Below, piece by piece: positions 6,004-47,092 of a stretch of DNA of 64,000 bases (position 1 is the first letter of the stretch; each line of letters begins with the position of its first letter). This DNA is from an uncultured Chthonomonas sp. (GTDB lineage: Bacteria; Armatimonadota; Chthonomonadetes; Chthonomonadales; CAJBBX01): assembly GCA_903885605.1 (NCBI GenBank), contig CAISJD010000077.1:8490-72489 (forward strand), in the 5' to 3' direction. The notes beneath the pieces were generated by a model. The model ran no database searches. It had not been told where the DNA came from and was given only the letters and a program-made list of their open reading frames with translations. A program made the position numbers and the translations under genes.

Positions 6004-6474
6004 GTGAAGAGCTTTCCAATCAGTCCGGGGTCGGGCGGCGCCGTGGGGATGATCGCCCTGCTGGTCCTCGTGATGGTGGGCCTCGTGGCGCTTATCGCCT
6101 CTTTCGGGTGGTCCGCCAAGCATGCCCGGTTCGAGGTGACCCGCCAGGGGTTGCGGATCGCCGGCGCGGTCTACGGCCGCACCATCGCCATGCAGGACCT
6201 CGATACCGACGGCGCGCGGGCTGTGGACCTCCGCGAGAACCCCGACCTGGCGCTGGTCGTGCGAACCAATGGCGCCGGCATGCCGGGATACGCCGCAGGC
6301 TGGTTCCGGACGCGGTCGCGGCACAAGGCCCTCGCGTTCGTCACCGACCCGGCGCATGTCGCCTGCATACCCACCCGGCTGGGCTACATCCTGCTGCTCA
6401 GCACGCCGGATCCCGCCCAGCTGATCGACGCCTTGCGCGACGCCTCGCGCGAGGAGAACTGGCCGCCGGCCTGA
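6004..6474 (+). CDS. Membrane-anchored protein with bacterial PH-like domain (tentative)
   Basis: GTG start. One clear TM helix (GMIALLVLVMVGLVALIASFGW) followed by a beta-rich ~120-aa domain (FEVTRQGLRIAG...YAAGWFRTRS...AFVT...). Confidence 0.45.
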   Translation: MKSFPISPGSGGAVGMIALLVLVMVGLVALIASFGWSAKHARFEVTRQGLRIAGAVYGRTIAMQDLDTDGARAVDLRENPDLALVVRTNGAGMPGYAAGWFRTRSRHKALAFVTDPAHVACIPTRLGYILLLSTPDPAQLIDALRDASREENWPPA

Positions 6475-6489
6475 CCCAAGGAGTCGCTC

Positions 6490-7428
6490 TTGCCATCGAA
6501 CCGATCCGACCGCCTGGCACGCCTGATGCGGGCGGCTACCGAGAACGGCACCGCCGTTCCGGCGTTCAACGTGCCCTACCTGCCCCTCGTGCGGCCGATC
6601 TGCGAGGCCCTGGAGCGCCACGGCGCGTTCGGCCTGGCTGAAGTCGCGCGGCTTGAGCTCTATAAGTTCGAGGCAGGCTCCCTGGCGGCTGTGGCCGAGG
6701 AGTACGACCGCTGGGCCAACCGGCGCAACGACGCCTTGCACCTGGACCATGTGCCCGTCATCGATGAGGACAACCTGACCGTCGACTATACGGCGCTGAT
6801 CGCGGAGGGTATCGCGCTGGGCTATGACTCGGTGATGGTCGACGGCTCGCGGCTTTCGTTCGAGGGGAATATCGACGCAGCGGCACGGGTCGTCGCCATG
6901 GCCCATCCCGAGGGCGTCCTGGTCGAGGCGGAGCTCGGCGCCGTGCTGGGGCACGAGTCAGGGCCCATGCCGCCCTACGATGAGCTGTTCGCGACGAAGC
7001 GCGGCTTCACGGAGCCCGACCAGGCGCGCAGCTATGTGGAGCAGTCCGGCGTCGACTGGCTTTCGGTCTCGGTGGGCTCGGTGCATGGGGCTATCGCGCC
7101 GTCGACCAAGGGGCAGACCAAGGTGACCGCGCGGCTGGATGTGGAGCGCGTCTCCGAGCTTCGCGCCGCCACGGGCGTTCCGCTGGTGCTGCACGGCGGC
7201 TCCGGGATCGCGGTCGAGTACCTGCGCGCGGCGATCGGCGCGGGCATGGCGAAGGTGAACGTGGCGACGGACATCCGACAACCCTACGAGCGCGCCCTGG
7301 CTGCCGGGGGTTCCGTGGCCGATGGGCAGGCTGCGGCGGCGCACGCGCTGGACCGGCTCCTGACCGACGTGCTACAGCTCGACGGCTCGCTGGCCATGCT
7401 TCAGAGCCTCATCGGAGAGCGATCGTGA
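6490..7428 (+). CDS. Class II fructose/tagatose-bisphosphate aldolase family protein
   Basis: TTG 6490 with AAGGAG 6 nt upstream. VPAFNV, LHLDHV, SVMVDGS, VEAELG, SVGSVHG and LVLHGGSG motifs match the FBA_II (KbaY/GatY/Fba) family layout. Confidence 0.75.
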   Translation: MPSNRSDRLARLMRAATENGTAVPAFNVPYLPLVRPICEALERHGAFGLAEVARLELYKFEAGSLAAVAEEYDRWANRRNDALHLDHVPVIDEDNLTVDYTALIAEGIALGYDSVMVDGSRLSFEGNIDAAARVVAMAHPEGVLVEAELGAVLGHESGPMPPYDELFATKRGFTEPDQARSYVEQSGVDWLSVSVGSVHGAIAPSTKGQTKVTARLDVERVSELRAATGVPLVLHGGSGIAVEYLRAAIGAGMAKVNVATDIRQPYERALAAGGSVADGQAAAAHALDRLLTDVLQLDGSLAMLQSLIGERS

Positions 7429-13209: not shown

Positions 13210-14700
13210 CTACTTCCTTTCGATGGTCGCGCGGGCGGATACGAAGCCCAGGGCGGGTACGGTGACGCGGAGGCGGCCGTCCTGGGCGGTGGCCTGCCAG
13301 GGCGTCGGTTGCACGGAGTTCGGGGCCTCCCAGCTGTTGGCGGCCTTGGGATCGCTCCCGTGCAGGGCGTCGGCGCCGGTGGCCGCGGTGACCACGGCGT
13401 CGTTCAGGCGCACGTCCAGCTCCACGGCGTCGGTCCGGCTCCGGTTCACGGCGAAGAGCGCCAGCCGGCCCTCGTCATCCAGGCAGGCCGAGACGTCGAG
13501 CACGGGCGCCTCGCCCCGCGATCCCGCCTTGTAGGTGGGGCAGTCGAGCTGCGTGCGGAGCGAGCGCCCCGCCGTGTGCCGGGCCATGAGCGCGAAGGGG
13601 TGGTAGATGCTCTGGATGAGCAGGCCGTCGGGCCGCGTGAGCATGGGCGCGATGATGTTGACGATCTGGGCGATGCAGGCGACCTTCACCACGTCGGCGC
13701 GGCGGATGAAGGCGTTCAGGTACTGCGCGCAGACCAGCGCGTCCTCAAGGTTGTAGACCTCCTCGATGAGGTGCGGGGCCCTGGTCCAGCGGCCGTCCAT
13801 CTCCATGGCCTTGTACCAGACGTTCCACTCGTCGAAGGAGAGGTGGACCCGCTTGTCGGAGCGTTTCATGCCCCGGACGTAGTCGAAGAGGCCGGCGTAG
13901 TCCGCGATGATCCGGTCGATCTCCACGCCCTCGGCCAGGTACCAGTCCGTGTCGCCGGCATGGTTGGCGCTGTAGCGGTGGGCGGAGACGTAGCTGATGT
14001 GGTCCCAGCAGTACTCCAGCACCTCGCGGTCGTAGGCCAGGTAGGTGCCCATGGAGCGCCCGGATGAGCCGCAGGCCACCAGTTCGATCGTCGGGTCGAG
14101 GCCGCGCATGAGCTTGGCCGCCTGGTCGGCCCGGCGGGCATACTCGGCCGCAGGCACGTGCCCGGCCTGCCAGGGGCCGTCCATCTCGTTGCCGAGGCAC
14201 CAGACCTTGACGCCGTAGGGGTCGGTCCGGCCGTTGGCCACGCGCCGGTCGGCCCAGTAGGTGCCTGCGGGCATGTTGCAGTATTCGACCAGCGCCTGCG
14301 CCTCCATGGCGCCCCGGGTGCCCAGGTTCACGGCCATCATGGGTGAGGTGTCGGCCTTGCGGCACCACTGCATGAACTCATCGGTGCCGAACTGGTTGGT
14401 CTCGACGCTCTTCCAGGCATAGTCGGGCCGGGCCGGCCGCTGGTCCCGCGGGCCGATGCCGTCGGTCCAGTCATAGCTGCTGACGAAGTTGCCGCCGGGG
14501 TAGCGCATGAGCGGCATCCGGAGCCTGCGGATGGCCTCCAGCACGTCGGTGCGGAACCCGTCCTCGTCGGCCAGCGGGCTGCCGGGGTCGTAGACGCCCT
14601 CGTAGACGGCGCGGCCCATATGCTCCAGGAAGCCGCTGAAGATGCGCGGGTCAATAGGCCCGGCGTGGAACTCGGTGTCAAGGGTAAGCGTTGCTGGCAT
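13210..14700 (-). CDS. abfA: Alpha-L-arabinofuranosidase (GH51)
   Basis: Start at the internal Met (ATG at 14700, GAGGAG upstream). RYPGGNFVSSYDW, WCLGNEMDG and FDEWNVWY are GH51 hallmarks. The 86-aa N-terminal extension in listed ORF 13210..14958 reads through repeat DNA and was rejected. Confidence 0.9.
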   Translation of the reverse strand: MPATLTLDTEFHAGPIDPRIFSGFLEHMGRAVYEGVYDPGSPLADEDGFRTDVLEAIRRLRMPLMRYPGGNFVSSYDWTDGIGPRDQRPARPDYAWKSVETNQFGTDEFMQWCRKADTSPMMAVNLGTRGAMEAQALVEYCNMPAGTYWADRRVANGRTDPYGVKVWCLGNEMDGPWQAGHVPAAEYARRADQAAKLMRGLDPTIELVACGSSGRSMGTYLAYDREVLEYCWDHISYVSAHRYSANHAGDTDWYLAEGVEIDRIIADYAGLFDYVRGMKRSDKRVHLSFDEWNVWYKAMEMDGRWTRAPHLIEEVYNLEDALVCAQYLNAFIRRADVVKVACIAQIVNIIAPMLTRPDGLLIQSIYHPFALMARHTAGRSLRTQLDCPTYKAGSRGEAPVLDVSACLDDEGRLALFAVNRSRTDAVELDVRLNDAVVTAATGADALHGSDPKAANSWEAPNSVQPTPWQATAQDGRLRVTVPALGFVSARATIERK

Positions 14701-14941
14701 GTGCGGCGCTCCTCTTCCAGTAGTAAGCGCGCATAGGTTCGCCGCCGGGGCAGTCGTTCCCTGCCGGGTGCGGGCGAGCAGGCATGGTGCAGGCGCTGGA
14801 GGCGGCCCGCCGGTGTTGGTGGCTCCATGCCGGTCTTGGTGGCTCAGTACCAGTTTCGGTGGCTCGGGCCTCCGTGCCTGAGTCTGGAGGGCTTGGGCCG
14901 CCGGCCAAAGCCGACGGCGGTGCGGCGGTGCAGCGGGTTGC

Positions 14942-14993
14942 GGCGTCAAGGTGTTCACTTCCCTGTGGCAGCAAAGTAATCACCTTGACCGCC
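14942..14993. repeat. REP-like hairpin core, copy 1 (degenerate right arm)
   Basis: GGCGTCAAGGTGTTCACTT-(loop)-AAGTAATCACCTTGACCGCC. Same element as 15173..15224 and 16577..16628, with two mismatches in the stem. Confidence 0.8.
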
Positions 14994-15020
14994 TTGGGCC
15001 GCACCGATGCCGCCCGCTGT

Positions 15021-15054
15021 TGACGTCGCCCTGAGTGAAACGAAGGGCCCCGAC
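15021..15054 (+). repeat. Short module TGACGTCGCCCTGAGTGAAACGAAGGGCCCCGAC
   Basis: Identical copy at 16657..16690. A related copy in inverted orientation lies at 15119..15146 (its reverse complement is GTCATCCTGAACGGAGTGAAGGACCCCG). Confidence 0.75.
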
Positions 15055-15118
15055 TTCAGCGCCGCACTGTCGTACCCCTGCGCGAAGCGGCCCAGGCAAG
15101 CCACCGCAGCGGAAGAAT

Positions 15119-15146
15119 CGGGGTCCTTCACTCCGTTCAGGATGAC
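15119..15146 (-). repeat. Inverted, diverged copy of the CCTGA...GAAGG module
   Basis: CGGGGTCCTTCACTCCGTTCAGGATGAC. Its reverse complement matches the pattern GTCRYCCTGA-N-GAAGGRCCCC seen at 15024..15054 and 16660..16690. Confidence 0.6.
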
Positions 15147-15240
15147 GGCGGTGCGGCGGAGCGGCGGGTTGCGGCGTCAAGGTGTTCACTTTCCTAGGTC
15201 GGAAAAGTGAACGCCTTGACCGCCTTGGGCCGCACCGATG
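15147..15240. repeat. Partial third copy (C) of the composite element (hairpin half only)
   Basis: GGCGGTGCGGCGG..GGGTTGCGGCGTCAAGGTGTTCACTT-loop-AAGTGAACGCCTTGACCGCCTTGGGCCGCACCGATG matches the right half of copies A and B. The hairpin core is 15173..15224, about 31 nt beyond the stop of the orphan gene. Confidence 0.8.
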
Positions 15241-15254
15241 ATGTCGGCGCTGGG

Positions 15255-16268
15255 CTACCGTCGTAGGAACCGCCGCAGCCGGTCGGCCAGGGAGGGGCTG
15301 TAGCTTGCGGTCGGCTCATCATCGTCCTCGGCGTCTCCAGCGGCCCAACTCATCCTCATCAGGCTGTGCATCACGATGTAGGTGTGTATTCCGGGCCGGA
15401 ACGTGAGGTCGGAGAAGAAGGCGACGTGCGTGAGCCCAATCTGGCCCTTGCACCATGAGCCGAACGACCAGGCGTTCGGTACTTCGGCGTACTCACGCTC
15501 GTTCATCCGTAGCGCCTCGGCCACCGTGTTGGGATGGTCCCTGGTCGGGAGGCTGAGCAGGCACAGGAGGCCCTTGCCGAGGTTCGGGTGCCGGGCCCCG
15601 GCGTTCAGCACCAGGGATGCGCCGGGTCCGCCACAGGCCAGGCGGAGCGAGAGCATCGTGTCGCTGCTCTGGATGTCTCGCACCATGGGGTGCCTGCGCA
15701 CGGCCCCGGCCGCTTGGCCTAATGCGCCGCCGGCGTACATCGCCGGCGCGGAACGGCTCTTGGCGTAGTCTGACAGGTTCAGCATGTCGTCACGTTGCGT
15801 GCGCTTGCCGCTAGTGGGGTGGGGGCTCATAGCAGGGGCGCCGCCGCAGCCCCCGGCCATGATCGGCGCCATCAGCTCGGCCTCGCGGGCCTGGAAGGCG
15901 GCGGCGACCCCCAGTAGCGGGGTCAGCCAGCCGATGTTGTCCTCATTAGCGTAGGCGCTGCACGCCAGTCGCCACTTCGATGCATCCTTGCGGTCGTGGA
16001 TCGGCCCGCTGAGCGACATGCCCTGGAGCATGGCAGCGATGCTACCGTCCCGGTCCGACGCCATGTCGCCCCCGTGGATGAGGTCAGTCTCGATGTGAAC
16101 GCGCGATAGGTCGATCCCGTCGTCGCACATGCAGGGATCAGCCCATATCCGCTGGGCATAGGCCCCGCCCCACCACGTGAACCCCCTGGCCTCGTTGCGG
16201 CTCCACTTCGCGTCGACCTGCAACTGCTTGCGTAACTGCGTGACAGCTTTCAGCCCGATGTCATCCAT
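15255..16268 (-). CDS. Hypothetical protein (337 aa), orphan gene inside the repeat-bounded cassette
   Basis: ATG 16268 with GGGAG 7 nt upstream. Clean ORF, visibly less GC-rich than its neighbours. Protein-like composition with acidic tail (AGDAEDDDEP) and two similar Trp-rich segments (ARGFTWWGGAYAQRIWA / PNAWSFGSWCKGQIGLTHVA). I recognise no family. Confidence 0.6.
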   Translation of the reverse strand: MDDIGLKAVTQLRKQLQVDAKWSRNEARGFTWWGGAYAQRIWADPCMCDDGIDLSRVHIETDLIHGGDMASDRDGSIAAMLQGMSLSGPIHDRKDASKWRLACSAYANEDNIGWLTPLLGVAAAFQAREAELMAPIMAGGCGGAPAMSPHPTSGKRTQRDDMLNLSDYAKSRSAPAMYAGGALGQAAGAVRRHPMVRDIQSSDTMLSLRLACGGPGASLVLNAGARHPNLGKGLLCLLSLPTRDHPNTVAEALRMNEREYAEVPNAWSFGSWCKGQIGLTHVAFFSDLTFRPGIHTYIVMHSLMRMSWAAGDAEDDDEPTASYSPSLADRLRRFLRR

Positions 16269-16436
16269 GTCTCATCTCCCAGTATCAGCTGATTAGCCGA
16301 CATAGCATCCGGACTGCCTGATGACTCGGTCACCCGTCCTGCAGGCCGTCTGCATAGGTGAACACGCCTAACTGCGAACCTTATAGCACAAGCAATGAGC
16401 CATCGTCCATGATGCTGATGGTTTTCCCCCTCCGCA

Positions 16437-16690
16437 CCGGCGGTGGTGGCTCGGGGCAGGTGTTGGTGGCTCAGTACCAGTTTCGGTGGCTCGGGCCTCC
16501 GTGCCCGAGTCTGGAGGGCTTGGGCCGCCGGCTAATGCCGACGGCGGCGGCGGTGCGGCGGGTTGCGGCGGGTTGCGGCGTCAAGGTGTTCACTTTCCTG
16601 TGGCAGAGAAGTGAACACCTTGACCGCCTTGGCGCCGCACCGATGCCGCCCGCCGTTGACGTCGCCCTGAGTGAAACGAAGGGCCCCGAC
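16437..16690. repeat. Direct repeat copy B (~254 bp) of the composite intergenic element
   Basis: See copy A. GGTGGCTC at 16445/16465/16485. Hairpin CTCGGGC-CTCCGT-GCCCGAG at 16490..16509. Tandem GGTTGCGGCG x2 at 16561..16580. Long hairpin 16577..16628. Terminal module ends at 16690. Confidence 0.85.
16577..16628. repeat. REP-like hairpin core, copy 3 (best preserved)
   Basis: GGCG-TCAAGGTGTTCACTT-TCCTGTGGCAGAG-AAGTGAACACCTTGA-CCGCC. Perfect 15-bp stem, 13-nt loop, plus 4 more pairs after a 1-nt bulge. Confidence 0.85.
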
Positions 16691-16834
16691 GCCCAGCTGG
16701 CGATCCCGACGCCCGACCACTACCTGCCCCTGCTGCCGCTGCTGGGCGCCGGGCGGGCCGGCGAACCGGTCACCTTCCCGGTGGAGGGCTTCGACGGCGG
16801 CTCCATGTCTATGCTCGCGGTCAAGTTCGGGTAG
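16688..16834 (+). pseudogene. 3' remnant of an extradiol ring-cleavage dioxygenase (4,5-DOPA dioxygenase / YgiD-LigB family)
   Basis: Only the last ~48 codons are recognisable (DAQLAIPTPDHYLPLLPLLGAGRAGEPVTFPVEGFDGGSMSMLAVKFG*), matching the conserved C-terminus PTP(D/E)HYLPLL..LG....GS.SM of this family. Similarity begins exactly where repeat copy B ends (16690). The upstream part of listed ORF 16358..16834 is a translation of repeat DNA. Confidence 0.55.
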
Positions 16835-16888: not shown

Positions 16889-17152
16889 ATGGCCGTAACC
16901 GCTACGACCCGCTTGACCCAGCGTGGCCAGGTAGTCATTCCGCGCGCAGTCCGTGAGCAAATGGGGCTCACCAAGGGCGCAGGTTTCGCCGTCGTCGCCA
17001 CGGATGATACCATCGTGCTCCGGAGGCTGGATGAGCCCGTGGCGGCCGAGTTTGACGCGGTGATTGGCGCGCTTCGGAAGCAGGCGAGGGCCGCAGGCAT
17101 CAAGCCGGCCGATGTGGAGGAGGCCGTCAAGCAGGCCAGGGCCATAGTGTGA
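16889..17152 (+). CDS. AbrB/MazE/SpoVT-family antitoxin
   Basis: 87 aa, AAGGAGGTG RBS. N-terminal swapped-hairpin motif TRLTQRGQVVIPRAVREQMGLTKG. Overlaps the downstream PIN gene by 4 nt. Confidence 0.75.
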   Translation: MAVTATTRLTQRGQVVIPRAVREQMGLTKGAGFAVVATDDTIVLRRLDEPVAAEFDAVIGALRKQARAAGIKPADVEEAVKQARAIV

Positions 17153-17553
17153 GGGTTGTACTCGACACCAATGTGATCCTGTCGGCGGCGCTTGTCGGCG
17201 GCCTGTCAGGCCGGATTCTGGATGCATGGCGCAATGGCGCGCTCGTGCTGGTCGTGTGCCCCGAGATCATGCAGGAGTACGAGAGGGCGGGCCTGGCGCT
17301 GGAGCGGCGCTACCCCGCGGTGCGCGTGATGCCGTTCGTCCGGCTGGTGCAGCAGTTGTCGGAGGTAGCCGCTCCTGTCGCTCCGTTCCCATCGGTCTGC
17401 CGTGACCCGGATGACGACAAGTTCCTGGCGTGTGCCGAGGCAGGCGGCGCGGCGGTCATCGTGTCGGGCGACAAGGACCTGCTGGCCGTTGGTGAATACG
17501 CCGGGGTCGGCGTTCTAACGCCTCGCGCCTTCGTGGAGGCCCACCTGTCCTAG
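17149..17553 (+). CDS. PIN-domain toxin (PIN_3-like ribonuclease)
   Basis: GTG overlapping the antitoxin stop (GTGA). VVLDTNVILSA N-terminal acidic motif, DPDDDKFLACA, and C-terminal IVSGDKDLL typical of the PIN_3 / TIGR00305-type family. Confidence 0.8.
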   Translation: MRVVLDTNVILSAALVGGLSGRILDAWRNGALVLVVCPEIMQEYERAGLALERRYPAVRVMPFVRLVQQLSEVAAPVAPFPSVCRDPDDDKFLACAEAGGAAVIVSGDKDLLAVGEYAGVGVLTPRAFVEAHLS

Positions 17554-17560
17554 CCCCGTC

Positions 17561-20287
17561 CTACCGCCGCCTCGCCCCGAATTCCCCGAGCGCTTCCTTC
17601 GTGAAGGCCGTCGTCACCACCCACTCGCCTCGGCCGTCGACCACCCGGCTTGGGTCCGTCTGCGCCTGCTTTCGCACGTCCGCCGGGCAGAGGCGTTTGG
17701 CGGCGTAGCAGGTCGCGCCCTCGCGCACGCATCGCCGGATCGCCTCCAGCGTCTCCGGGCTCACCTCCACGCCGCACAGGATGATCGTCTTAACGCCCGC
17801 CAGCATCGCGTATCCGACCCGGTGGTCGTAGATCGCCGTTCGCGGCGCGGGGACGTCGAACCGCCAGGCGTACCGGTCGTAGACGCCGCTGTTGGTGTTC
17901 ACCGCGCCGGGGTGCGTGGCGCCGCCGGTGAGCCAGTGCCATGCTTGCAGCCACTCGCGCGTCTCCGGCGTCGATTGCAGGTTCTCCGCGCCGTAGAGCG
18001 TGTTCCAGTAGCTGCCCGTGGCCTGGCCCCAGTCGCTGTCCGGGAAGCGGACCATGGCCACCTCGGGCGCGAAGTCGCGGCAGGGCTTTGTGCTGGGCGT
18101 GGTCGCCTGCTGCGCGATGTGGCGGCGCAGGACGGCGCCGTACTCCGACAGGTCGTACTGCGTGGCGCCATAGGGCGCGAGGCAGGTGGTGAACTCGGTG
18201 TAGACGTGGTCGACGCCCGCCGATCGCGCCAACTCCAGCGCCTGCCGGTACTCCGTGGCGGAGTGGCCGGGAAACTGGTCGATGTGCCAGAGGTCGGGGC
18301 TGAACCATAGCTCCGCGCCGTACTGCCTGGCCGCGCCCAGGGCCTGGGCCAGCACCACCGGGTGGATGTCCTCCTTGAGCAGCTTGGGGCAGAGGGTGAA
18401 GCCGGCGCGGGCCAACGGATGCCATAGCACTGGAAAGACGCTCTCCACCAGCGTCCGCGCGCCGTGGCTCCGGTTGGCGGCCGCCACGCGCCCCGCGGCC
18501 GTCACGAGCGCCTCGTAGGCCTGCGGCAGCGCCATGCCGGTGGTCTCCACGAGGTAGGGCTTGCGATGCACCGGGTCCGTCAGGCCCGAGTAGGCGTTCC
18601 GCGACATCTGCATGTGCTCGCCCTCGTCGTAGACCACTCCCTCGAAGAGGCCGGTGGCCGACGCGGCGTCCAACGCCTCCGGCTCAATGTCCCACCGGTG
18701 GCATCCGCCCTCGGCTGCGAAGCGGTTGCGGCCCTCCTTGTCGAGCGCCTCGGGCGCCCAGTTGGAGGTCTCGTTGTTCAGCGCGAAGCGCGTGCGCGTG
18801 GCCCTGCAAAAGGCGAGCAGCTCGCGGAACTCGCCGTTGTCGAGCTGCGCCGGGTCCAGGTGGAACTGGAGGAAGTTGACGCCCAGGTCGCGCAGGGAGA
18901 GGAGCAGCGCCGGGCTGTCGACGTAGCCCAGGTCCACGCCCTGCAGCCCTCGACGCACCGTGCTGAAGGGGCCCACGGTGTCGAACAGCTCGCTCACGCG
19001 CTTCTGGCCGGGACCGAGCAGCGCCAGCGCGGTGGTGTGGGCCTGCACGTTGCGCGAACCGGGCAGGGCGGCCTCCAGGCTGTAGAGGCCCCGTGGCAGG
19101 GGCTTCAGCCGCGCCGTGGCCCTGTCGCCGGTCAGGGCGAGGAGAAGCCGCTGGACCTCGCGCCGCCGCCAGTCCCGCACGGTGACGACGCACTTGCGGG
19201 CGAAGCCGGGCGCCGTATCCCAGACGCGCACCTCGATGGGCAACGCCCGGCCGGCCGCGGCCCGGTCGGCGCCGTCGGCCACGCGCACGCTCGTGGTGGC
19301 CGTCACGGGCCGCGCGCCGGCGTCGGCGGTGTGGCGGATGTCGATGGGCCAGTAGGCGATGTGGAGCCAGTCGGGGCATGGCGGGCGGACGGTCTGCAGG
19401 GGCTTCGCGCCGTCGACGCTCCAGTGCGGGCCGCTGACGAGCCGACCGATCTCGCGGGCTCCGGCGAGGGCGCGCAGGTCCAGGGCCAGCCTCTGTGCCG
19501 GGGCGGGCGAGAAGTCATACGCCGCGCGGAAGCCCGTCGCCGCGGCGTCGATGCGGCACCGCAGGGCGTCTCCGTGGCCGTCGGAGATGCGCCAGCCGGC
19601 GGCGGGGCTCAGGTCGCGGAGACCTCCGGGGCCGTCAAGCGTTACGCGGTCGAAGGTGACCGAGCCGCCTGGGTCGCGCCCGGTGCGCTTTTGGTCGATG
19701 CGGATGCGTACCCGCGCCACGCGCTCCAGGTCGCACCCCGCCGCGCCGATGGGCATCCGGCCCGCGGACCGCAGGTCGATGGTGTGTACGGCCGGTGCGC
19801 CCGTCTCGCCCAGCTGCAGCGTTGGGTCGGTTCGCTCCGCGCAGAAGTAGCCCGTCGAACGGCCCTCGGCGTCGAGGCACTCAAGGTAGAGCCACTCAAA
19901 CCGCCGGGCGTCCGAGGTGGCGATCGTCAGCGTGCGGGCCGCCATGGGTGGGTCCACGGCGCGCTCGACCACCATCCAGCAGTTCTCGGGCTGGCGGACG
20001 ACCTCGGACGCCACCTCGACGCGTACGCTGTTCCGACCCGCCCGCAGGCCGCTCGTCAGGCGGCGTACATCGGCCCAGGGTCGGTCGCCCACGTCCACGG
20101 CGACGCCGTTGATCCAGACGCGGTAGCGGTCCTGAGCCGTGGTCCGCAGCAGGGCGTGCGTGGGGCGGGAGGGTAGCTCCAGCGTCGCCTCGAAGCGGGC
20201 CGTGGCGCGCATGGCGTCGGGCGGCGGCGCGATCCAGACGGGCAGCGGCCCGACGGCAACCAGCAGCAGGGAGTTCACAGCGTTCAT
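17561..20287 (-). CDS. Large secreted hypothetical protein (908 aa), glycoside-hydrolase-like architecture
   Basis: N-terminal hydrophobic leader. Jelly-roll-like segment (DRYRVWINGVAVDVG...GRNSVRVEV). Central region with TIM-barrel-like alternation. C-terminal KTIILCGVEVSPETLEAIRRCVREGATCY resembles the GATase1-like middle domain of GH42 enzymes. Codon usage is consistent with neighbours. Confidence 0.65.
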   Translation of the reverse strand: MNAVNSLLLVAVGPLPVWIAPPPDAMRATARFEATLELPSRPTHALLRTTAQDRYRVWINGVAVDVGDRPWADVRRLTSGLRAGRNSVRVEVASEVVRQPENCWMVVERAVDPPMAARTLTIATSDARRFEWLYLECLDAEGRSTGYFCAERTDPTLQLGETGAPAVHTIDLRSAGRMPIGAAGCDLERVARVRIRIDQKRTGRDPGGSVTFDRVTLDGPGGLRDLSPAAGWRISDGHGDALRCRIDAAATGFRAAYDFSPAPAQRLALDLRALAGAREIGRLVSGPHWSVDGAKPLQTVRPPCPDWLHIAYWPIDIRHTADAGARPVTATTSVRVADGADRAAAGRALPIEVRVWDTAPGFARKCVVTVRDWRRREVQRLLLALTGDRATARLKPLPRGLYSLEAALPGSRNVQAHTTALALLGPGQKRVSELFDTVGPFSTVRRGLQGVDLGYVDSPALLLSLRDLGVNFLQFHLDPAQLDNGEFRELLAFCRATRTRFALNNETSNWAPEALDKEGRNRFAAEGGCHRWDIEPEALDAASATGLFEGVVYDEGEHMQMSRNAYSGLTDPVHRKPYLVETTGMALPQAYEALVTAAGRVAAANRSHGARTLVESVFPVLWHPLARAGFTLCPKLLKEDIHPVVLAQALGAARQYGAELWFSPDLWHIDQFPGHSATEYRQALELARSAGVDHVYTEFTTCLAPYGATQYDLSEYGAVLRRHIAQQATTPSTKPCRDFAPEVAMVRFPDSDWGQATGSYWNTLYGAENLQSTPETREWLQAWHWLTGGATHPGAVNTNSGVYDRYAWRFDVPAPRTAIYDHRVGYAMLAGVKTIILCGVEVSPETLEAIRRCVREGATCYAAKRLCPADVRKQAQTDPSRVVDGRGEWVVTTAFTKEALGEFGARRR

Positions 20288-46078: not shown

Positions 46079-47092
46079 CTACTTGCGCCGCTTGGGTGTG
46101 GGCTTCGCCTTGGTCTTGGCCGTCGTATCGGCCTTGGCGCTGGGCGGCAGGAGGTTGACATAGATGGCCGCCTGCACGGCGCTCTTCATCTCGGCGGGGG
46201 TATCCGGCGTGGCCGGTTCGCCCACCGTCTTTTCGGTGATGTCCGCACTGAGGATCAGGAGGCCCGACGTTACAAGGCCTCGTGCCTTGTCGAAGGTGTA
46301 TCCTCCGTCGCCCTTGATGACGCCGGTTCGGGTCTTCTTCACAGCCGCGGGGTCGGTGGTCGGCTTCTTCTTCGCGTCGAGCGACTGCTTCACGTCCATG
46401 CTGAAGATGGACTTCAGGAAGACAGGCGTCTTCGCGGTGATCTCGGTCGGCAGGGAGAGCCGCTTCGGAAGCTCGGCCTTCAGCTCGTCGGATGCCGGGT
46501 ACGAGACGACCGGGCGGTACTTGACGGCGACCATCTCGCCGCTGAAGCTCGCCTGGCTTCCCTGGCCGCCCAGGAGTTCACTTGTGTAGGGCCACTGGTC
46601 GCCGGGGGCCACCGCATGCTCAGGGAAGACCACCGGGAAGAGGAGGCAGTAGAGCCGCTTGGGATCGACGCCGGGGATCGACACGGCGAAGGGCAGCGGC
46701 AGGCCTGGCTTCACGCTGACGACGGCGCCTGACTTGGCGAACCGGACCACCTGATCGAGGACCTTGTGCGCGTCCTCCTCAGGTACGGGGAGGGGGATGC
46801 CCGCCATCTCGGCCTCGGCAGTCTCTACTCGCAGCGTCATCTCGGCCGACCCATCGGGCCGTACCGCGGTGGGCGTCGCCTTGTACACGATAGTGAGAAC
46901 CCCGTCGATCTGCACGGGCTCCGGGTTGTCGAAGAGCGGAATGGCGCCGGTCAGGTGCGCCACCAGGCTGTAGCGCAGTGGCTGTGCGGCCGTCCATCGG
47001 TACGCCAATGGGCGCAGCTGGGCCTGCGGCGCGGTCGGACGCGGCAAAGCCCCCAGTGCGAGCAGGTGCATGCAGAGCAGAAGAGCGGGCAA
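46079..47092 (-). CDS. Hypothetical secreted protein (337 aa), Lys-rich tail
   Basis: Leader MPALLLCMHLLALGALP. APGDQWPYTS motif similar to the KPGDTW of the next gene. C-terminal KADTTAKTKAKPTPKRRK. Confidence 0.6.
   Translation of the reverse strand: MPALLLCMHLLALGALPRPTAPQAQLRPLAYRWTAAQPLRYSLVAHLTGAIPLFDNPEPVQIDGVLTIVYKATPTAVRPDGSAEMTLRVETAEAEMAGIPLPVPEEDAHKVLDQVVRFAKSGAVVSVKPGLPLPFAVSIPGVDPKRLYCLLFPVVFPEHAVAPGDQWPYTSELLGGQGSQASFSGEMVAVKYRPVVSYPASDELKAELPKRLSLPTEITAKTPVFLKSIFSMDVKQSLDAKKKPTTDPAAVKKTRTGVIKGDGGYTFDKARGLVTSGLLILSADITEKTVGEPATPDTPAEMKSAVQAAIYVNLLPPSAKADTTAKTKAKPTPKRRK

What the first reader, a model, noticed from the sequence alone, without database searches (positions are those of the whole stretch)
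14811..16690. One orphan gene bracketed by ~250-bp direct repeats: a repeat-bounded cassette with no recombinase in sight
- Two ~250-bp segments (14811-15054 and 16437-16690) are in direct orientation and nearly identical by hand alignment.
- Between them lie only a partial third copy (15147-15240), a 337-aa orphan gene on the minus strand (15255-16268) and a noticeably AT-richer 168-bp leader (16269-16436).
- The gene itself looks less GC-rich than its surroundings.
- The right repeat ends exactly where a truncated dioxygenase remnant begins, and an AbrB/PIN TA pair follows.
- No transposase, integrase or other recombinase ORF is present anywhere in the 64-kb window.
- The element is therefore either non-autonomous (MITE/REP-like, mobilised in trans) or a recombination scar. 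I do not recognise this architecture as a named element.
Basis: seen in the sequence. Interest (0 to 1): 0.72.

Follow-up and report, generated by a model that had tools for sequence, protein, structure and literature searches.

The report
Strain-variable palindrome repeat array, recombination scar
The two ~250-bp direct repeats are real, but they are two copies of a repeat array found only at this one locus, which recombination has placed on both sides of a resident, non-orphan gene in an Armatimonadota genome; this is ordinary strain-level genome shuffling, not a new mobile cassette.

Summary
Observation confirmed. Repeats at 14810-15054 and 16437-16690 are direct, 93% identical with 3 indels, plus a partial copy at 15144-15240. 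At least 7 independent assemblies carry the same arrangement.

The cassette or mobile-element reading is not supported:
- No further copy was found in the 64-kb window. A 24-nt repeat pattern hit 185,579 species-representative genomes only once, at the syntenic locus of a Lac Pavin Armatimonadota MAG.
- Relatives carry the "cargo" gene at the same place, next to GH51, with no repeat between them (L004, L027).
- Other close strains carry the repeat array between GH51 and the dioxygenase remnant with no cargo gene (L031+L009; a contiguous 8.8-kb contig).
- The left repeat plus partial copy is a tandem array (period 231 bp) of a 45-bp palindrome-bearing unit. Its copy number varies between strains.
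- The right junction is a 9-nt microhomology deletion into an already decayed LigB dioxygenase gene.
- The two window copies each resemble a different strain's allele more than each other.

The gene is not an orphan. It has 1,257 HMMER homologues and a confident two-lobed, weakly YbjN-like model.

Best reading: a recombination scar at a hypervariable interval between GH51 and the 908-aa gene. Low novelty.

The parts
14701..14809 (.). Conserved GH51 upstream region (left border, 'LB') of the variable interval, plus about 20-40 nt of junction sequence before the array.
   Evidence: Homology with L025 ends at 14768. Homology with L004/L027 ends at about 14787-14790, within about 3 nt of the position of the gene's stop codon in L027. 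The same LB|array junction is seen in L029, L031 and L032.
14810..15054 (+). Left repeat copy (L). Its segments are: A, 3 x 20-bp tandem 'GGTGGCTC' units (14810-14869); B, a small hairpin (14870-12); C, GCGG-rich (14913-14944); H, the 45-bp palindrome (14945-14989); T, the tail ending GCCCTGAGTGAAACGAAGGGCCCCGAC (14990-15054).
   Evidence: It is 94.8% identical to the first array unit of orphan-less strain S1 (L031) and 93.1% identical to R.
15055..15143 (+). Segment X, the spacer of the 231-bp tandem unit. Its last 30 nt are an imperfect inverted copy of the T end (21/30).
   Evidence: The same segment lies between palindromes in L009, L031 and L032. Inverted similarity.
15144..15240 (+). Second, truncated tandem unit (C'-H'-T' partial). 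Palindrome H' is at 15176-15220. The unit is cut 14 nt before the stop codon of the 337-aa gene.
   Evidence: H-to-H spacing is 231 nt, as in L032.
15255..16268 (-). 337-aa gene, a resident of the locus. It belongs to a large uncharacterised family with a two-lobed alpha/beta fold weakly resembling YbjN/T3SS chaperones. The window carries a deeply diverged allele.
   Evidence: Homologue at the same position in L004 and L027. dN/dS is 0.24, with dS 1.18 against 0.24-0.47 in flanking genes. The HMMER search gave 1,257 hits. AF2 model: pLDDT 91.6. Weak fold hits.
16269..16436 (-). AT-richer leader/promoter region of the 337-aa gene (GC 54.8%).
   Evidence: It is 73.6% identical over 121 nt to the equivalent region of L027. 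No sigma-70 consensus match.
16437..16690 (+). Right repeat copy (R). Its segments are: A 16437-16496, B 16497-16539, C 16540-16579, H palindrome 16580-16624, T 16625-16690. Its last 9-10 nt are also the first nucleotides of the LigB remnant (microhomology junction).
   Evidence: It is 95.7% identical to the first array unit of L032.
16681..16834 (+). C-terminal remnant (about 50 codons) of a LigB-family 4,5-DOPA extradiol dioxygenase gene. Gene callers fuse it to the repeat as a spurious 141-aa ORF (16409-16834).
   Evidence: The gene is intact (258 aa) in L027 and is a 96-aa internally deleted form in L005-L014.
16889..17553 (+). MazE/AbrB-type antitoxin (16889-17152) and PIN_3 toxin (17149-17553). 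They are part of the variable interval and are absent from the L025-type haplotype.
17561..20287 (-). 908-aa conserved gene with no Pfam domain. It forms the right border of the variable interval.
13210..14700 (-). GH51 alpha-L-arabinofuranosidase, the conserved left neighbour.

Best explanation
**What it is.** The interval between the GH51 gene and the 908-aa gene is a strain-variable hotspot in a group of freshwater Armatimonadota. It holds an intergenic repeat array found only at this locus. A lead-in (A-B-C) is followed by head-to-tail units of about 231 bp. Each unit carries a near-perfect 45-bp palindrome (H) and a tail (T).

- The 'left repeat + partial copy' is this array, at 1.4 units.
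- The 'right repeat' is a second copy of the array's first about 250 bp.

**How it arose (inferred).** The two copies came to flank the resident 337-aa gene by host recombination, not transposition.
- One route is recombination between an orphan-less haplotype (GH51-array-dLigB) and a gene-bearing haplotype (GH51-gene-leader-array-LigB), with one illegitimate joint at 15240/15241.
- The other route is an older local duplication of the array.
- Afterwards, a 440-bp deletion across a 9-nt microhomology (CCCGACGCC) fused the T end of the right copy to the already decayed LigB gene.

**Consequences.**
- The palindromes and tandem units plausibly promote such events through slippage, cruciform or hairpin breakage, and unequal crossing-over. 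This is inferred.
- The direct repeats now make the gene deletable by RecA-type crossover, but the arrangement is stable across several sampled populations.

**Shown:**
- the anatomy of the array and its segments;
- confinement to this locus wherever sequence could be searched;
- synteny of the gene without flanking repeats;
- the array without the gene;
- copy-number polymorphism;
- the microhomology junction.

**Inferred:**
- the order of events;
- the recombination pathway.
For: 1. **Not dispersed.** There is no other copy in the 64-kb window. A 24-nt H/T pattern hit only one place in 185,579 species-representative genomes, the syntenic locus of MAG LacPavin_0920_WC57_MAG_69_10.
2. **The gene is resident, not cargo.**
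   - In L004 the homologue is 90 bp from GH51 with no repeat between them.
   - In L027 the order is LB-gene-leader-single palindrome-intact LigB (258 aa)-MazE-PIN.
3. **The array exists without the gene.**
   - L031 and L009, from one sample, overlap by 126 identical nt. Joined, they read GH51-LB-A-B-C-H-T-X-C-H-T'-LigB upstream-dLigB96.
   - A contiguous 8,844-bp contig has dLigB96, then 886 gene-free bp, then GH51. That is the 655 bp of the join plus exactly 231.
4. **Tandem array with copy-number polymorphism.** L032 has at least 2.5 units of period 231, and its successive units are 91% identical.
5. **Allele-like relationships.** L-R identity is 93.1%, L-S1 is 94.8% and R-L032 is 95.7%. 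At columns where L and R differ, S1 = L and L032 = R in 9 columns (about 4 events), and the reverse pattern never occurs.
6. **Right junction.** The window sequence equals the S1 T end joined to the S1 LigB 'GPD' site across the shared CCCGACGCC, a 440-bp deletion.
7. **Decay series of LigB.** It is 258 aa in L027, 96 aa in S1 and about 50 codons in the window.
8. **The interval is hypervariable.** L025 has entirely different genes there plus a half-palindrome remnant next to LB. L027 has an extra 1.43-kb insertion.
9. **No recombinase domain** among about 40 window genes.
Against: - Complete genomes were not available, so 'locus-specific' rests on three things: 64 kb of this genome, about 15-kb stretches of two relatives, and one incomplete MAG in the representative set.
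- The two metagenome-collection scans returned nothing, even for a pattern known to exist in a JGI contig. That collection therefore evidently does not hold these contigs, and those scans are uninformative.
- In L025 a half-palindrome sits exactly at the border between conserved DNA and unrelated island DNA. A site-specific mechanism acting at the palindrome would also predict this.
- The left illegitimate joint (15240/15241) shows no clear microhomology.
- The order of events (import versus old duplication) is not resolved.
- No function of the array itself has been demonstrated.
Confidence: 0.7

Rival explanations
1. Non-autonomous mobile element. Either the about 250-bp unit is a MITE/REP/PATE-like element mobilised in trans, or two copies form a composite that carries the gene as cargo.
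For: - The unit has long hairpins and is strongly structured (z = -6.7 on both strands).
- The T end has an imperfect inverted copy at the end of X (21-22/30).
- Contigs of relatives break inside it.
- A half-palindrome marks an island border in L025.
Against: - There are no terminal inverted repeats bounding the 245-254-bp unit and no target-site duplication.
- There is no second locus in the 64-kb window. Only the syntenic locus was hit among 185,579 representative genomes.
- The copies are arranged head-to-tail at one locus.
- The gene is syntenic in relatives that lack the left copy.
- There is no transposase in the window.
- Contig breaks are equally expected for a tandem array.
Confidence: 0.07
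2. Site-specific cassette exchange. On this reading the palindrome (H with its flanks) is an attC-like or hairpin recombination site. A recombinase encoded elsewhere would use it to swap gene modules (337-aa gene, LigB, the toxin-antitoxin (TA) pair, pilin-like genes) in and out of the GH51/908-aa interval.
For: - At least four different gene contents occupy the interval in related strains.
- A palindrome or its remnant lies at module borders: after the 337-aa gene, before LigB, and at the L025 island border.
- A TA pair is typical of sedentary cassette arrays.
Against: - There is no GTTRRRY/RYYYAAC core, and the stem is a near-perfect 19-21-bp duplex without extrahelical bases.
- There is no integrase in the 64-kb window.
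- The breakpoints are heterogeneous:
  - the T end joined to the LigB coding sequence by microhomology;
  - a joint within T';
  - a break in the H loop in L025.
  One fixed crossover point would be expected instead.
- The gene lacks a downstream palindrome in L004 and L027.
- The modules have mixed orientations and their own promoters.
Confidence: 0.06
3. Functional cis element duplicated together with regulatory DNA. On this reading the palindrome is an operator or insulator for a dimeric DNA-binding protein, or a transcript-stabilising or terminating hairpin. Both minus-strand genes (GH51 and the 337-aa gene) would have acquired it upstream. This is compatible with the best explanation for how the copies arose.
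For: - In L027 a single palindrome lies in the 436-bp divergent intergenic region between the 337-aa gene and LigB.
- The palindrome sequence is conserved (12 of 18 pairs invariant) across 8 copies, while the flanks diverge.
- Both full window copies lie 110-170 bp upstream of minus-strand genes.
Against: - There are no compensatory changes. All arm substitutions break pairing apart from three G-U cells, which gives no support for an RNA structure.
- There are no Rfam matches at or near threshold.
- There is no terminator-like T-run and no sigma-70 consensus.
- GH51 does without it in L004, L025 and L027.
- Copy number varies freely between strains.
Confidence: 0.12
4. Assembly artefact: a collapsed or duplicated repeat.
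For: Short-read metagenome assemblies of relatives do break at this repeat.
Against: - The identical arrangement is present in at least 7 independent assemblies, including 104-232-kb contigs produced by different assemblers.
- The copies differ by 17 substitutions and 3 indels.
Confidence: 0.01

Closest known systems
Bacterial intergenic minisatellites / VNTR loci (e.g. mycobacterial MIRU-type tandem repeats)
   Same: Head-to-tail units lie in an intergenic region at one fixed locus. Copy number differs between closely related strains: 1.4, 2, at least 2.5, and an inferred 3 units. Units diverge by about 9% within an array.
   Different: The unit is long (about 231 bp) and carries a 45-bp near-perfect palindrome. 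The array has a distinct lead-in (20-bp sub-repeats). Part of it has been duplicated 1.6 kb away across a gene.
REP/BIME palindromic elements and RAYT (TnpA-REP) systems
   Same: Both are GC-rich imperfect palindromes in intergenic DNA. They occur in clusters and are associated with rearrangement breakpoints.
   Different: REPs occur tens to hundreds of times per genome, dispersed, and usually with a RAYT gene. Here only one locus was found, and no HUH transposase is seen in the 64-kb window.
MITEs
   Same: Small, non-coding and strongly self-folding. They cause breaks in short-read assemblies.
   Different: There are no terminal inverted repeats bounding the unit, no target-site duplication and no dispersed copies. 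The organisation is tandem.
Integron gene cassettes / CALIN arrays (attC sites)
   Same: Genes are separated by imperfect palindromes. The interval has variable gene content and a toxin-antitoxin pair. No integrase lies nearby, as in CALINs.
   Different: There are no R/L core boxes and no extrahelical bases. Gene orientations are mixed and the genes have their own promoters. Breakpoints are heterogeneous and based on microhomology.
Homology-facilitated illegitimate recombination and microhomology-mediated deletion at chromosomal HGT hotspots
   Same: Conserved flanks (GH51 operon, 908-aa gene) bracket variable content. One junction has a 9-nt microhomology. A deeply diverged allele is embedded between much less diverged flanks.
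   Different: The process was not observed directly here. The mode of DNA transfer in Armatimonadota is unknown.

Membership tests
MITE | Terminal inverted repeats bounding the element | tested here: not met
   The ends of the 245/254-bp unit (CCGGYG... and ...GGGCCCCGAC) are not inverted copies of each other. The inverted similarity is internal (H arms; T end against X end, 21/30).
MITE | Target-site duplication flanking each copy | tested here: not met
   The flanks of L (…GGCGGCCCG | … | TTCAGCG) and of R (…CCTCCGCA | … | GCCCAGC) share no duplication.
MITE | Multiple dispersed copies in the genome | tested here: not met
   No copy elsewhere in the 64-kb window. One hit among 185,579 representative genomes, at the syntenic locus. 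No complete genome was available.
REP/BIME + RAYT | Tens to hundreds of short palindromes dispersed in intergenic regions | tested here: not met
REP/BIME + RAYT | Cognate RAYT (IS200/IS605-like Y1 HUH) gene in the genome | not testable with these tools
   None among about 40 genes of the window. The rest of the genome could not be accessed.
Integron cassette array / CALIN | attC sites with R''/L''/L'/R' boxes (RYYYAAC ... GTTRRRY) and extrahelical bases | tested here: not met
   Read directly from the sequence: no GTTRRRY core at the unit ends. The stem is a near-perfect duplex.
Integron cassette array / CALIN | Mostly co-oriented, promoterless ORFs, each followed by one attC | tested here: not met
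   LigB/TA and the 337-aa gene are divergent. The 337-aa gene has its own conserved AT-rich leader. Its homologues in L004 and L027 lack a downstream palindrome.
Integron cassette array / CALIN | IntI tyrosine recombinase (absent in CALINs) | tested here: not met
   No Phage_integrase or other recombinase domain in the window.
Intergenic minisatellite / VNTR | Head-to-tail repetition of a unit at one locus | tested here: met
   H-to-H spacing is 231 nt in the window and L032, and 220 nt in S1. Successive L032 units are 91% identical. TRF itself did not call the 231-bp period.
Intergenic minisatellite / VNTR | Copy-number polymorphism between related strains | tested here: met
   1.4 units (window, left), 2 (S1 join), at least 2.5 (L032), and 886 against 655 bp, i.e. 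+231 (the 8.8-kb contig).
Structured RNA family (Rfam or novel) | Match to a covariance model, or compensatory base changes | tested here: not met
   No hits at gathering thresholds. Only sub-threshold miRNA-hairpin noise in E-value mode. 0 of 18 pairs show double changes, and 8 cells have broken pairing.
LigB / 4,5-DOPA extradiol dioxygenase (remnant at 16681-16834) | Sequence homology to the PF02900 family over the full domain | tested here: not met
   Only the last about 50 residues are present, 87% identical to P0004. Full-length relatives are 243-258 aa. It is therefore a pseudogene remnant.
YbjN / T3SS-chaperone-like (TY-Chap) fold, for the 337-aa protein | Significant profile or structural match to YbjN or CesT-type chaperones | tested here: inconclusive
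   No Pfam, NCBIfam or PADLOC hit. Foldseek hits to YbjN, DR_1245, AmyR, SycE and ExsC reach only E = 0.09-0.4, with TM (target-normalised) 0.32-0.51 over one lobe. One fused homologue has a sub-threshold TY-Chap1 hit.

The most novel reading that the evidence does not exclude
The 45-bp palindrome with its T tail could be the recognition site of an unrecognised recombinase or nuclease that targets hairpins and is encoded elsewhere in the genome. That would make the interval between GH51 and the 908-aa gene a dedicated cassette-exchange site in Armatimonadota. The window would then show one freshly captured module (337-aa gene + leader + site).
Probability: 0.06. Interest if true: 0.7.

Novelty: new member of a known kind. 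Interest (0 to 1): 0.2.

Why it matters
This matters mainly as a caution and as an annotation fix.

- **Caution.** A gene bracketed by direct repeats looks like a mobile cassette. Here, comparison with five other haplotypes shows a repeat array found only at this locus and ordinary recombination at a strain-variable interval.
- **A documented case in a little-studied phylum.** It records palindrome-bearing tandem repeats that coincide with deletion and duplication breakpoints and with stepwise pseudogenisation (LigB: 258 aa, then 96 aa, then about 50 codons).
- **Annotation fixes.** The 141-aa 'gene' called across the right repeat is spurious. The '337-aa orphan' is the founding handle for a large family (over 1,200 representative clusters) with no Pfam or NCBIfam model and a confident predicted fold.

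Tried and rejected
- **Exact palindrome scan of genome contigs:** 0 hits. The window's own genome is therefore not in that collection.
- **Two metagenome-contig scans:** 0 hits. The pattern is present in JGI contig L009, so the collection evidently does not hold these short contigs. The scans are uninformative rather than negative.
- **Viral-contig scan with the 16-mer:** 10 single, one-strand hits. These were treated as chance, because a palindrome would hit both strands.
- **Known RNA features:** Rfam at gathering and E-value thresholds, a tRNA/tmRNA scan, and sigma-70 and terminator scans found nothing relevant.
- **Protein search with the 141-aa ORF that reads through the right repeat**:
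  - The aim was to find other repeat copies translated elsewhere.
  - It returned only LigB dioxygenases, matched through the C-terminal remnant.
  - BLAST extensions into the repeat part are weak, and I rejected them as evidence that the repeat derives from LigB coding sequence.
- **Homology beyond the 5' edge of the repeat:** I tested whether L/R homology extends into the leader. It does not: 437 of 2,000 shuffles score as well.
- **TRF:** it does not call the 231-bp period. The period was established from palindrome spacing and pairwise alignment instead.
- **AF2 with a 2-sequence alignment:** useless (pLDDT 44). It was repeated with 62 sequences.
- **Sequence search of PDB chains with the family profile:** nothing significant.
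- **PADLOC and NCBIfam:** no hits for the 337-aa or 908-aa proteins.
- **Order of events (import versus old duplication):** considered, but it could not be resolved.
Full report
**1. The observation**

The repeats exist as described.
- The repeat finder and MAFFT show direct copies L (14810-15054, 245 nt) and R (16437-16690, 254 nt). A partial copy M lies at 15144-15240.
- A global alignment of L and R gives 228 matches, 17 mismatches and 9 gap columns, i.e. 93.1% identity.
- Every copy contains a 45-bp palindrome, GTCAAGGTGTTCACTT...AAGTGAACACCTTGAC. Its 16-nt arm occurs six times at this locus and once more, with three mismatches, at 46568. The chance expectation is 0.15.
- The 337-aa ORF, the AT-richer leader (GC 54.8% against 69.2% for the window) and the MazE/PIN pair are as stated.
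- The gene's own GC content (66.8%) is only slightly below average.
- About 40 candidate genes of the window show no transposase or integrase domain.
- The arrangement is not an assembly artefact. It recurs in the independent assemblies behind L001-L003 and on three further contigs of 9, 104 and 105 kb. The copies also differ from each other.

**2. Anatomy**

I split the unit into segments.

| Segment | Description |
|---|---|
| A | Three 20-bp tandem sub-repeats containing GGTGGCTC (four in relatives) |
| B | A small hairpin |
| C | GCGG-rich |
| H | The 45-bp palindrome |
| T | A tail ending GCCCTGAGTGAAACGAAGGGCCCCGAC |

- After L comes an 89-bp segment X (15055-15143). Its last 30 nt are an imperfect inverted copy of the T end (21/30). 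Then come C'-H'-T' (copy M).
- The spacing from H to H' is 231 nt.
- Both strands fold far better than shuffles (z about -6.7).
- Across eight copies from four haplotypes, no helix pair shows a compensatory change, and eight cells simply break pairing.
- Rfam finds nothing, and there is no terminator or sigma-70 consensus.
- The palindrome is therefore conserved as sequence. There is no positive evidence for a selected RNA structure.

**3. Organism and comparative loci**

Cluster look-ups name the source lineage as Armatimonadota MAGs. Fetching contigs that encode the neighbouring proteins gave five other haplotypes of the same interval.

| Haplotype | Source | Arrangement |
|---|---|---|
| L004 | Logan | The gene's homologue (63% aa) ends 90 bp before GH51, with no repeat between them. 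GH51-side DNA is 90% identical to the window up to 14787. |
| L027 | GCA_026392115.1, Lac Pavin | 908-aa gene, PIN, MazE, intact LigB dioxygenase (258 aa), a 436-bp divergent intergenic region with one degenerate palindrome, 335-aa homologue, native GH51 upstream region, GH51 |
| L005-L014 | Logan and JGI | A 96-aa internally deleted LigB remnant followed by MazE-PIN-908/943-aa. The right flank is 97.7% identical to the window. Every contig ends inside the palindrome. |
| L031, L032, L029 | JGI and Logan | GH51, the same left-border junction as the window, then A(x4)-B-C-H-T-X-C-H-T... L032 shows at least 2.5 units of period 231. |
| L025/L026 | ENA (BUCK21 samples) | The interval holds unrelated genes (a prepilin-like 230-aa protein, a 244-aa protein and a 32-aa ORF). 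Next to the left border lies only a half-palindrome remnant. |

- L031 and L009 come from the same JGI sample and overlap by 126 identical nt. The join (called S1) reads GH51-array-LigB upstream-dLigB96, with no 337-aa gene.
- A contiguous 8,844-bp contig from another sample confirms this. It has dLigB96, then 886 gene-free bp, then GH51. That is 655 bp plus exactly one more 231-bp unit.

**4. What this means for the 'cassette'**

- The gene occurs at this position without flanking repeats, in L004 and L027.
- The repeat array occurs at this position without the gene, in S1, L032 and the 8.8-kb contig.
- The 'left repeat + partial copy' is therefore the local tandem array.
- The 'right repeat' is a second copy of the array's first about 250 bp.
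- No other copy exists in the 64-kb window.
- A 24-nt H/T pattern, degenerate enough to match five of the seven full copies seen, hit only the L027 locus among 185,579 species-representative genomes.
- There are no bounding inverted repeats and no target-site duplications.
- Each defining feature of MITEs, REP/RAYT systems and integron attC arrays that could be tested was not met (see the membership table).

**5. Junctions and history**

*Right junction*
- S1 has ...GAAGGGCCCCGACGCC|ATCG at the T end and ...CTGGGTCCCGACGCC|CATCTGGCG in LigB.
- The window has ...GAAGGGCCCCGACGCC|CAGCTGGCG.
- This is a 440-bp deletion across a 9-nt identity.
- It explains why 'the repeat ends exactly where the dioxygenase remnant begins'. 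It also explains why LigB homology starts at 16681, inside the repeat.
- LigB thus shows a decay series: 258 aa, then 96 aa, then about 50 codons.

*Left edge*
- The 5' edge of the repeat is sharp. Sequence upstream of A in L and in R is no more similar than shuffled sequence.
- The sequence left of L still aligns with the GH51-gene intergenic region of L027, to within about 3 nt of that gene's stop codon.
- This suggests that orphan-less haplotypes arose by deletion of the gene plus its leader.

*Relationship of the two copies*
- The window shares the orphan-less LB|A junction, yet has the gene further right.
- L and R are no closer to each other (93.1%) than to alleles of other strains (L-S1 94.8%, R-L032 95.7%).
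- At columns where L and R differ, S1 sides with L and L032 sides with R in nine columns (about four events). The reverse pattern never occurs.

*The gene's allele*
- The gene is under purifying selection (dN/dS 0.24).
- Its dS against L027 is 1.18, compared with 0.24-0.28 for GH51 and the fucosidase and 0.38-0.47 for the toxin-antitoxin (TA) genes.
- It is therefore a deeply diverged allele lying between much younger flanks.

*Most economical reading*
- One possibility is recombination between an orphan-less and a gene-bearing haplotype. This needs one homologous exchange on the right and one illegitimate joint at 15240/15241.
- The other possibility is an older duplication of the array in a common ancestor.
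- In both cases the microhomology deletion came afterwards. I cannot decide between the two routes.

**6. Mechanism**

- *Shown:* a tandem, palindrome-bearing array confined to this locus wherever sequence could be searched; copy-number variation; a microhomology junction; and heterogeneous breakpoints (within T', at the T end, and in the H loop in L025).
- *Inferred:*
  - The array promotes rearrangement by slippage, unequal crossing-over and palindrome-induced breakage. This is established behaviour of long palindromes and tandem repeats in bacteria.
  - Homologous flanks (the GH51 operon and the 908-aa gene) allow exchange of the interval between strains.
- The direct repeats make the gene deletable, but window-type contigs with three different 908-aa variants keep the same arrangement. 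It is therefore not conspicuously unstable.
- A cis-regulatory role of the palindrome, for example as an operator in the divergent gene/LigB promoter region seen in L027, remains possible. It is not exclusive of the scar reading.

**7. The 'orphan'**

- The word-indexed search found only one homologue.
- A full HMMER profile search found 1,257 representative clusters at E <= 1e-3 and 148 at E <= 1e-30. Most are 320-360 aa. Some are fused to trypsin-like peptidase, Sel1 or CpXC domains.
- There is no Pfam, NCBIfam or PADLOC model.
- With a 62-sequence alignment, AF2 gives pLDDT 91.6 and pTM 0.89. The model has two similar alpha-beta-alpha lobes.
- Foldseek has no significant PDB match. The best partial hits (target-normalised TM 0.32-0.51) include YbjN-family proteins and T3SS chaperones.
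- Its function remains unknown. A chaperone or binding role is only a lead.

**8. Verdict**

- The mobile-cassette interpretation is not supported. The 'recombination scar' alternative is.
- The feature is a new example of a known kind: an intergenic VNTR-like array at a strain-variable hotspot.
- Interest is low (0.2).
- The residual novel reading is a palindrome-directed cassette-exchange site. I give it about 6%.

Noticed in passing
window 15255-16268 (-): The '337-aa orphan' belongs to a large family with no Pfam or NCBIfam model: 1,257 representative clusters, 148 of them at E <= 1e-30. The AF2 model is confident (pLDDT 91.6) and shows two tandem alpha-beta-alpha lobes that weakly resemble YbjN/T3SS chaperones. 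Some homologues are fused to trypsin-like peptidase, Sel1 or CpXC domains.
   Followed up: partly
window 15270-16390 vs L027 4325-5454: The gene and its leader are about 70% identical in nucleotides to the L027/L004 allele (dS 1.18). The adjacent GH51 and fucosidase genes have dS 0.24-0.28, and MazE/PIN 0.38-0.47. A deeply diverged allele therefore sits between young flanks. This points to allelic replacement or long-term balanced polymorphism.
   Followed up: partly
L027 5537-7010: A 1.43-kb insertion lies after codon 4 of GH51. It carries an Rce1-like/CPBP protease gene (6135-6899), with further sequence upstream of it. It is flanked by a 24-bp direct duplication, tggcaagcatgNgcggcgctcct, which regenerates the GH51 RBS and start codon. 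The mechanism is unknown.
   Followed up: no
L025 4144-6905 (also a 121-kb contig): An alternative content of the same interval: a 230-aa protein with a prepilin-type N-terminal methylation motif, a 244-aa protein without domains, a 32-aa ORF and about 950 bp of AT-richer DNA. A half-palindrome remnant (6873-6905) lies at the border with conserved GH51 upstream DNA.
   Followed up: partly
window 16409-16834 (+): Gene callers annotate a 141-aa protein here. It is a chimera: repeat DNA read through in frame, joined to the last about 50 codons of a LigB dioxygenase pseudogene. It is almost certainly not a real gene.
   Followed up: yes
L005 1072-3903; window 17561-20287: The conserved 908-aa neighbour has no Pfam, NCBIfam or PADLOC domain. 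It is called as 890-, 908-, 912- and 943-aa variants in related strains. The 943-aa call overlaps the PIN gene by about 100 nt, which probably reflects a start- or stop-calling difference.
   Followed up: no
window 14870-14892 vs 16497-16519: The small hairpin in segment B differs between copies by C/T (GCCTGAG vs GCCCGAG). This keeps a G-U pair on the plus strand only. It is a single observation and too little to argue for a plus-strand RNA.
   Followed up: no
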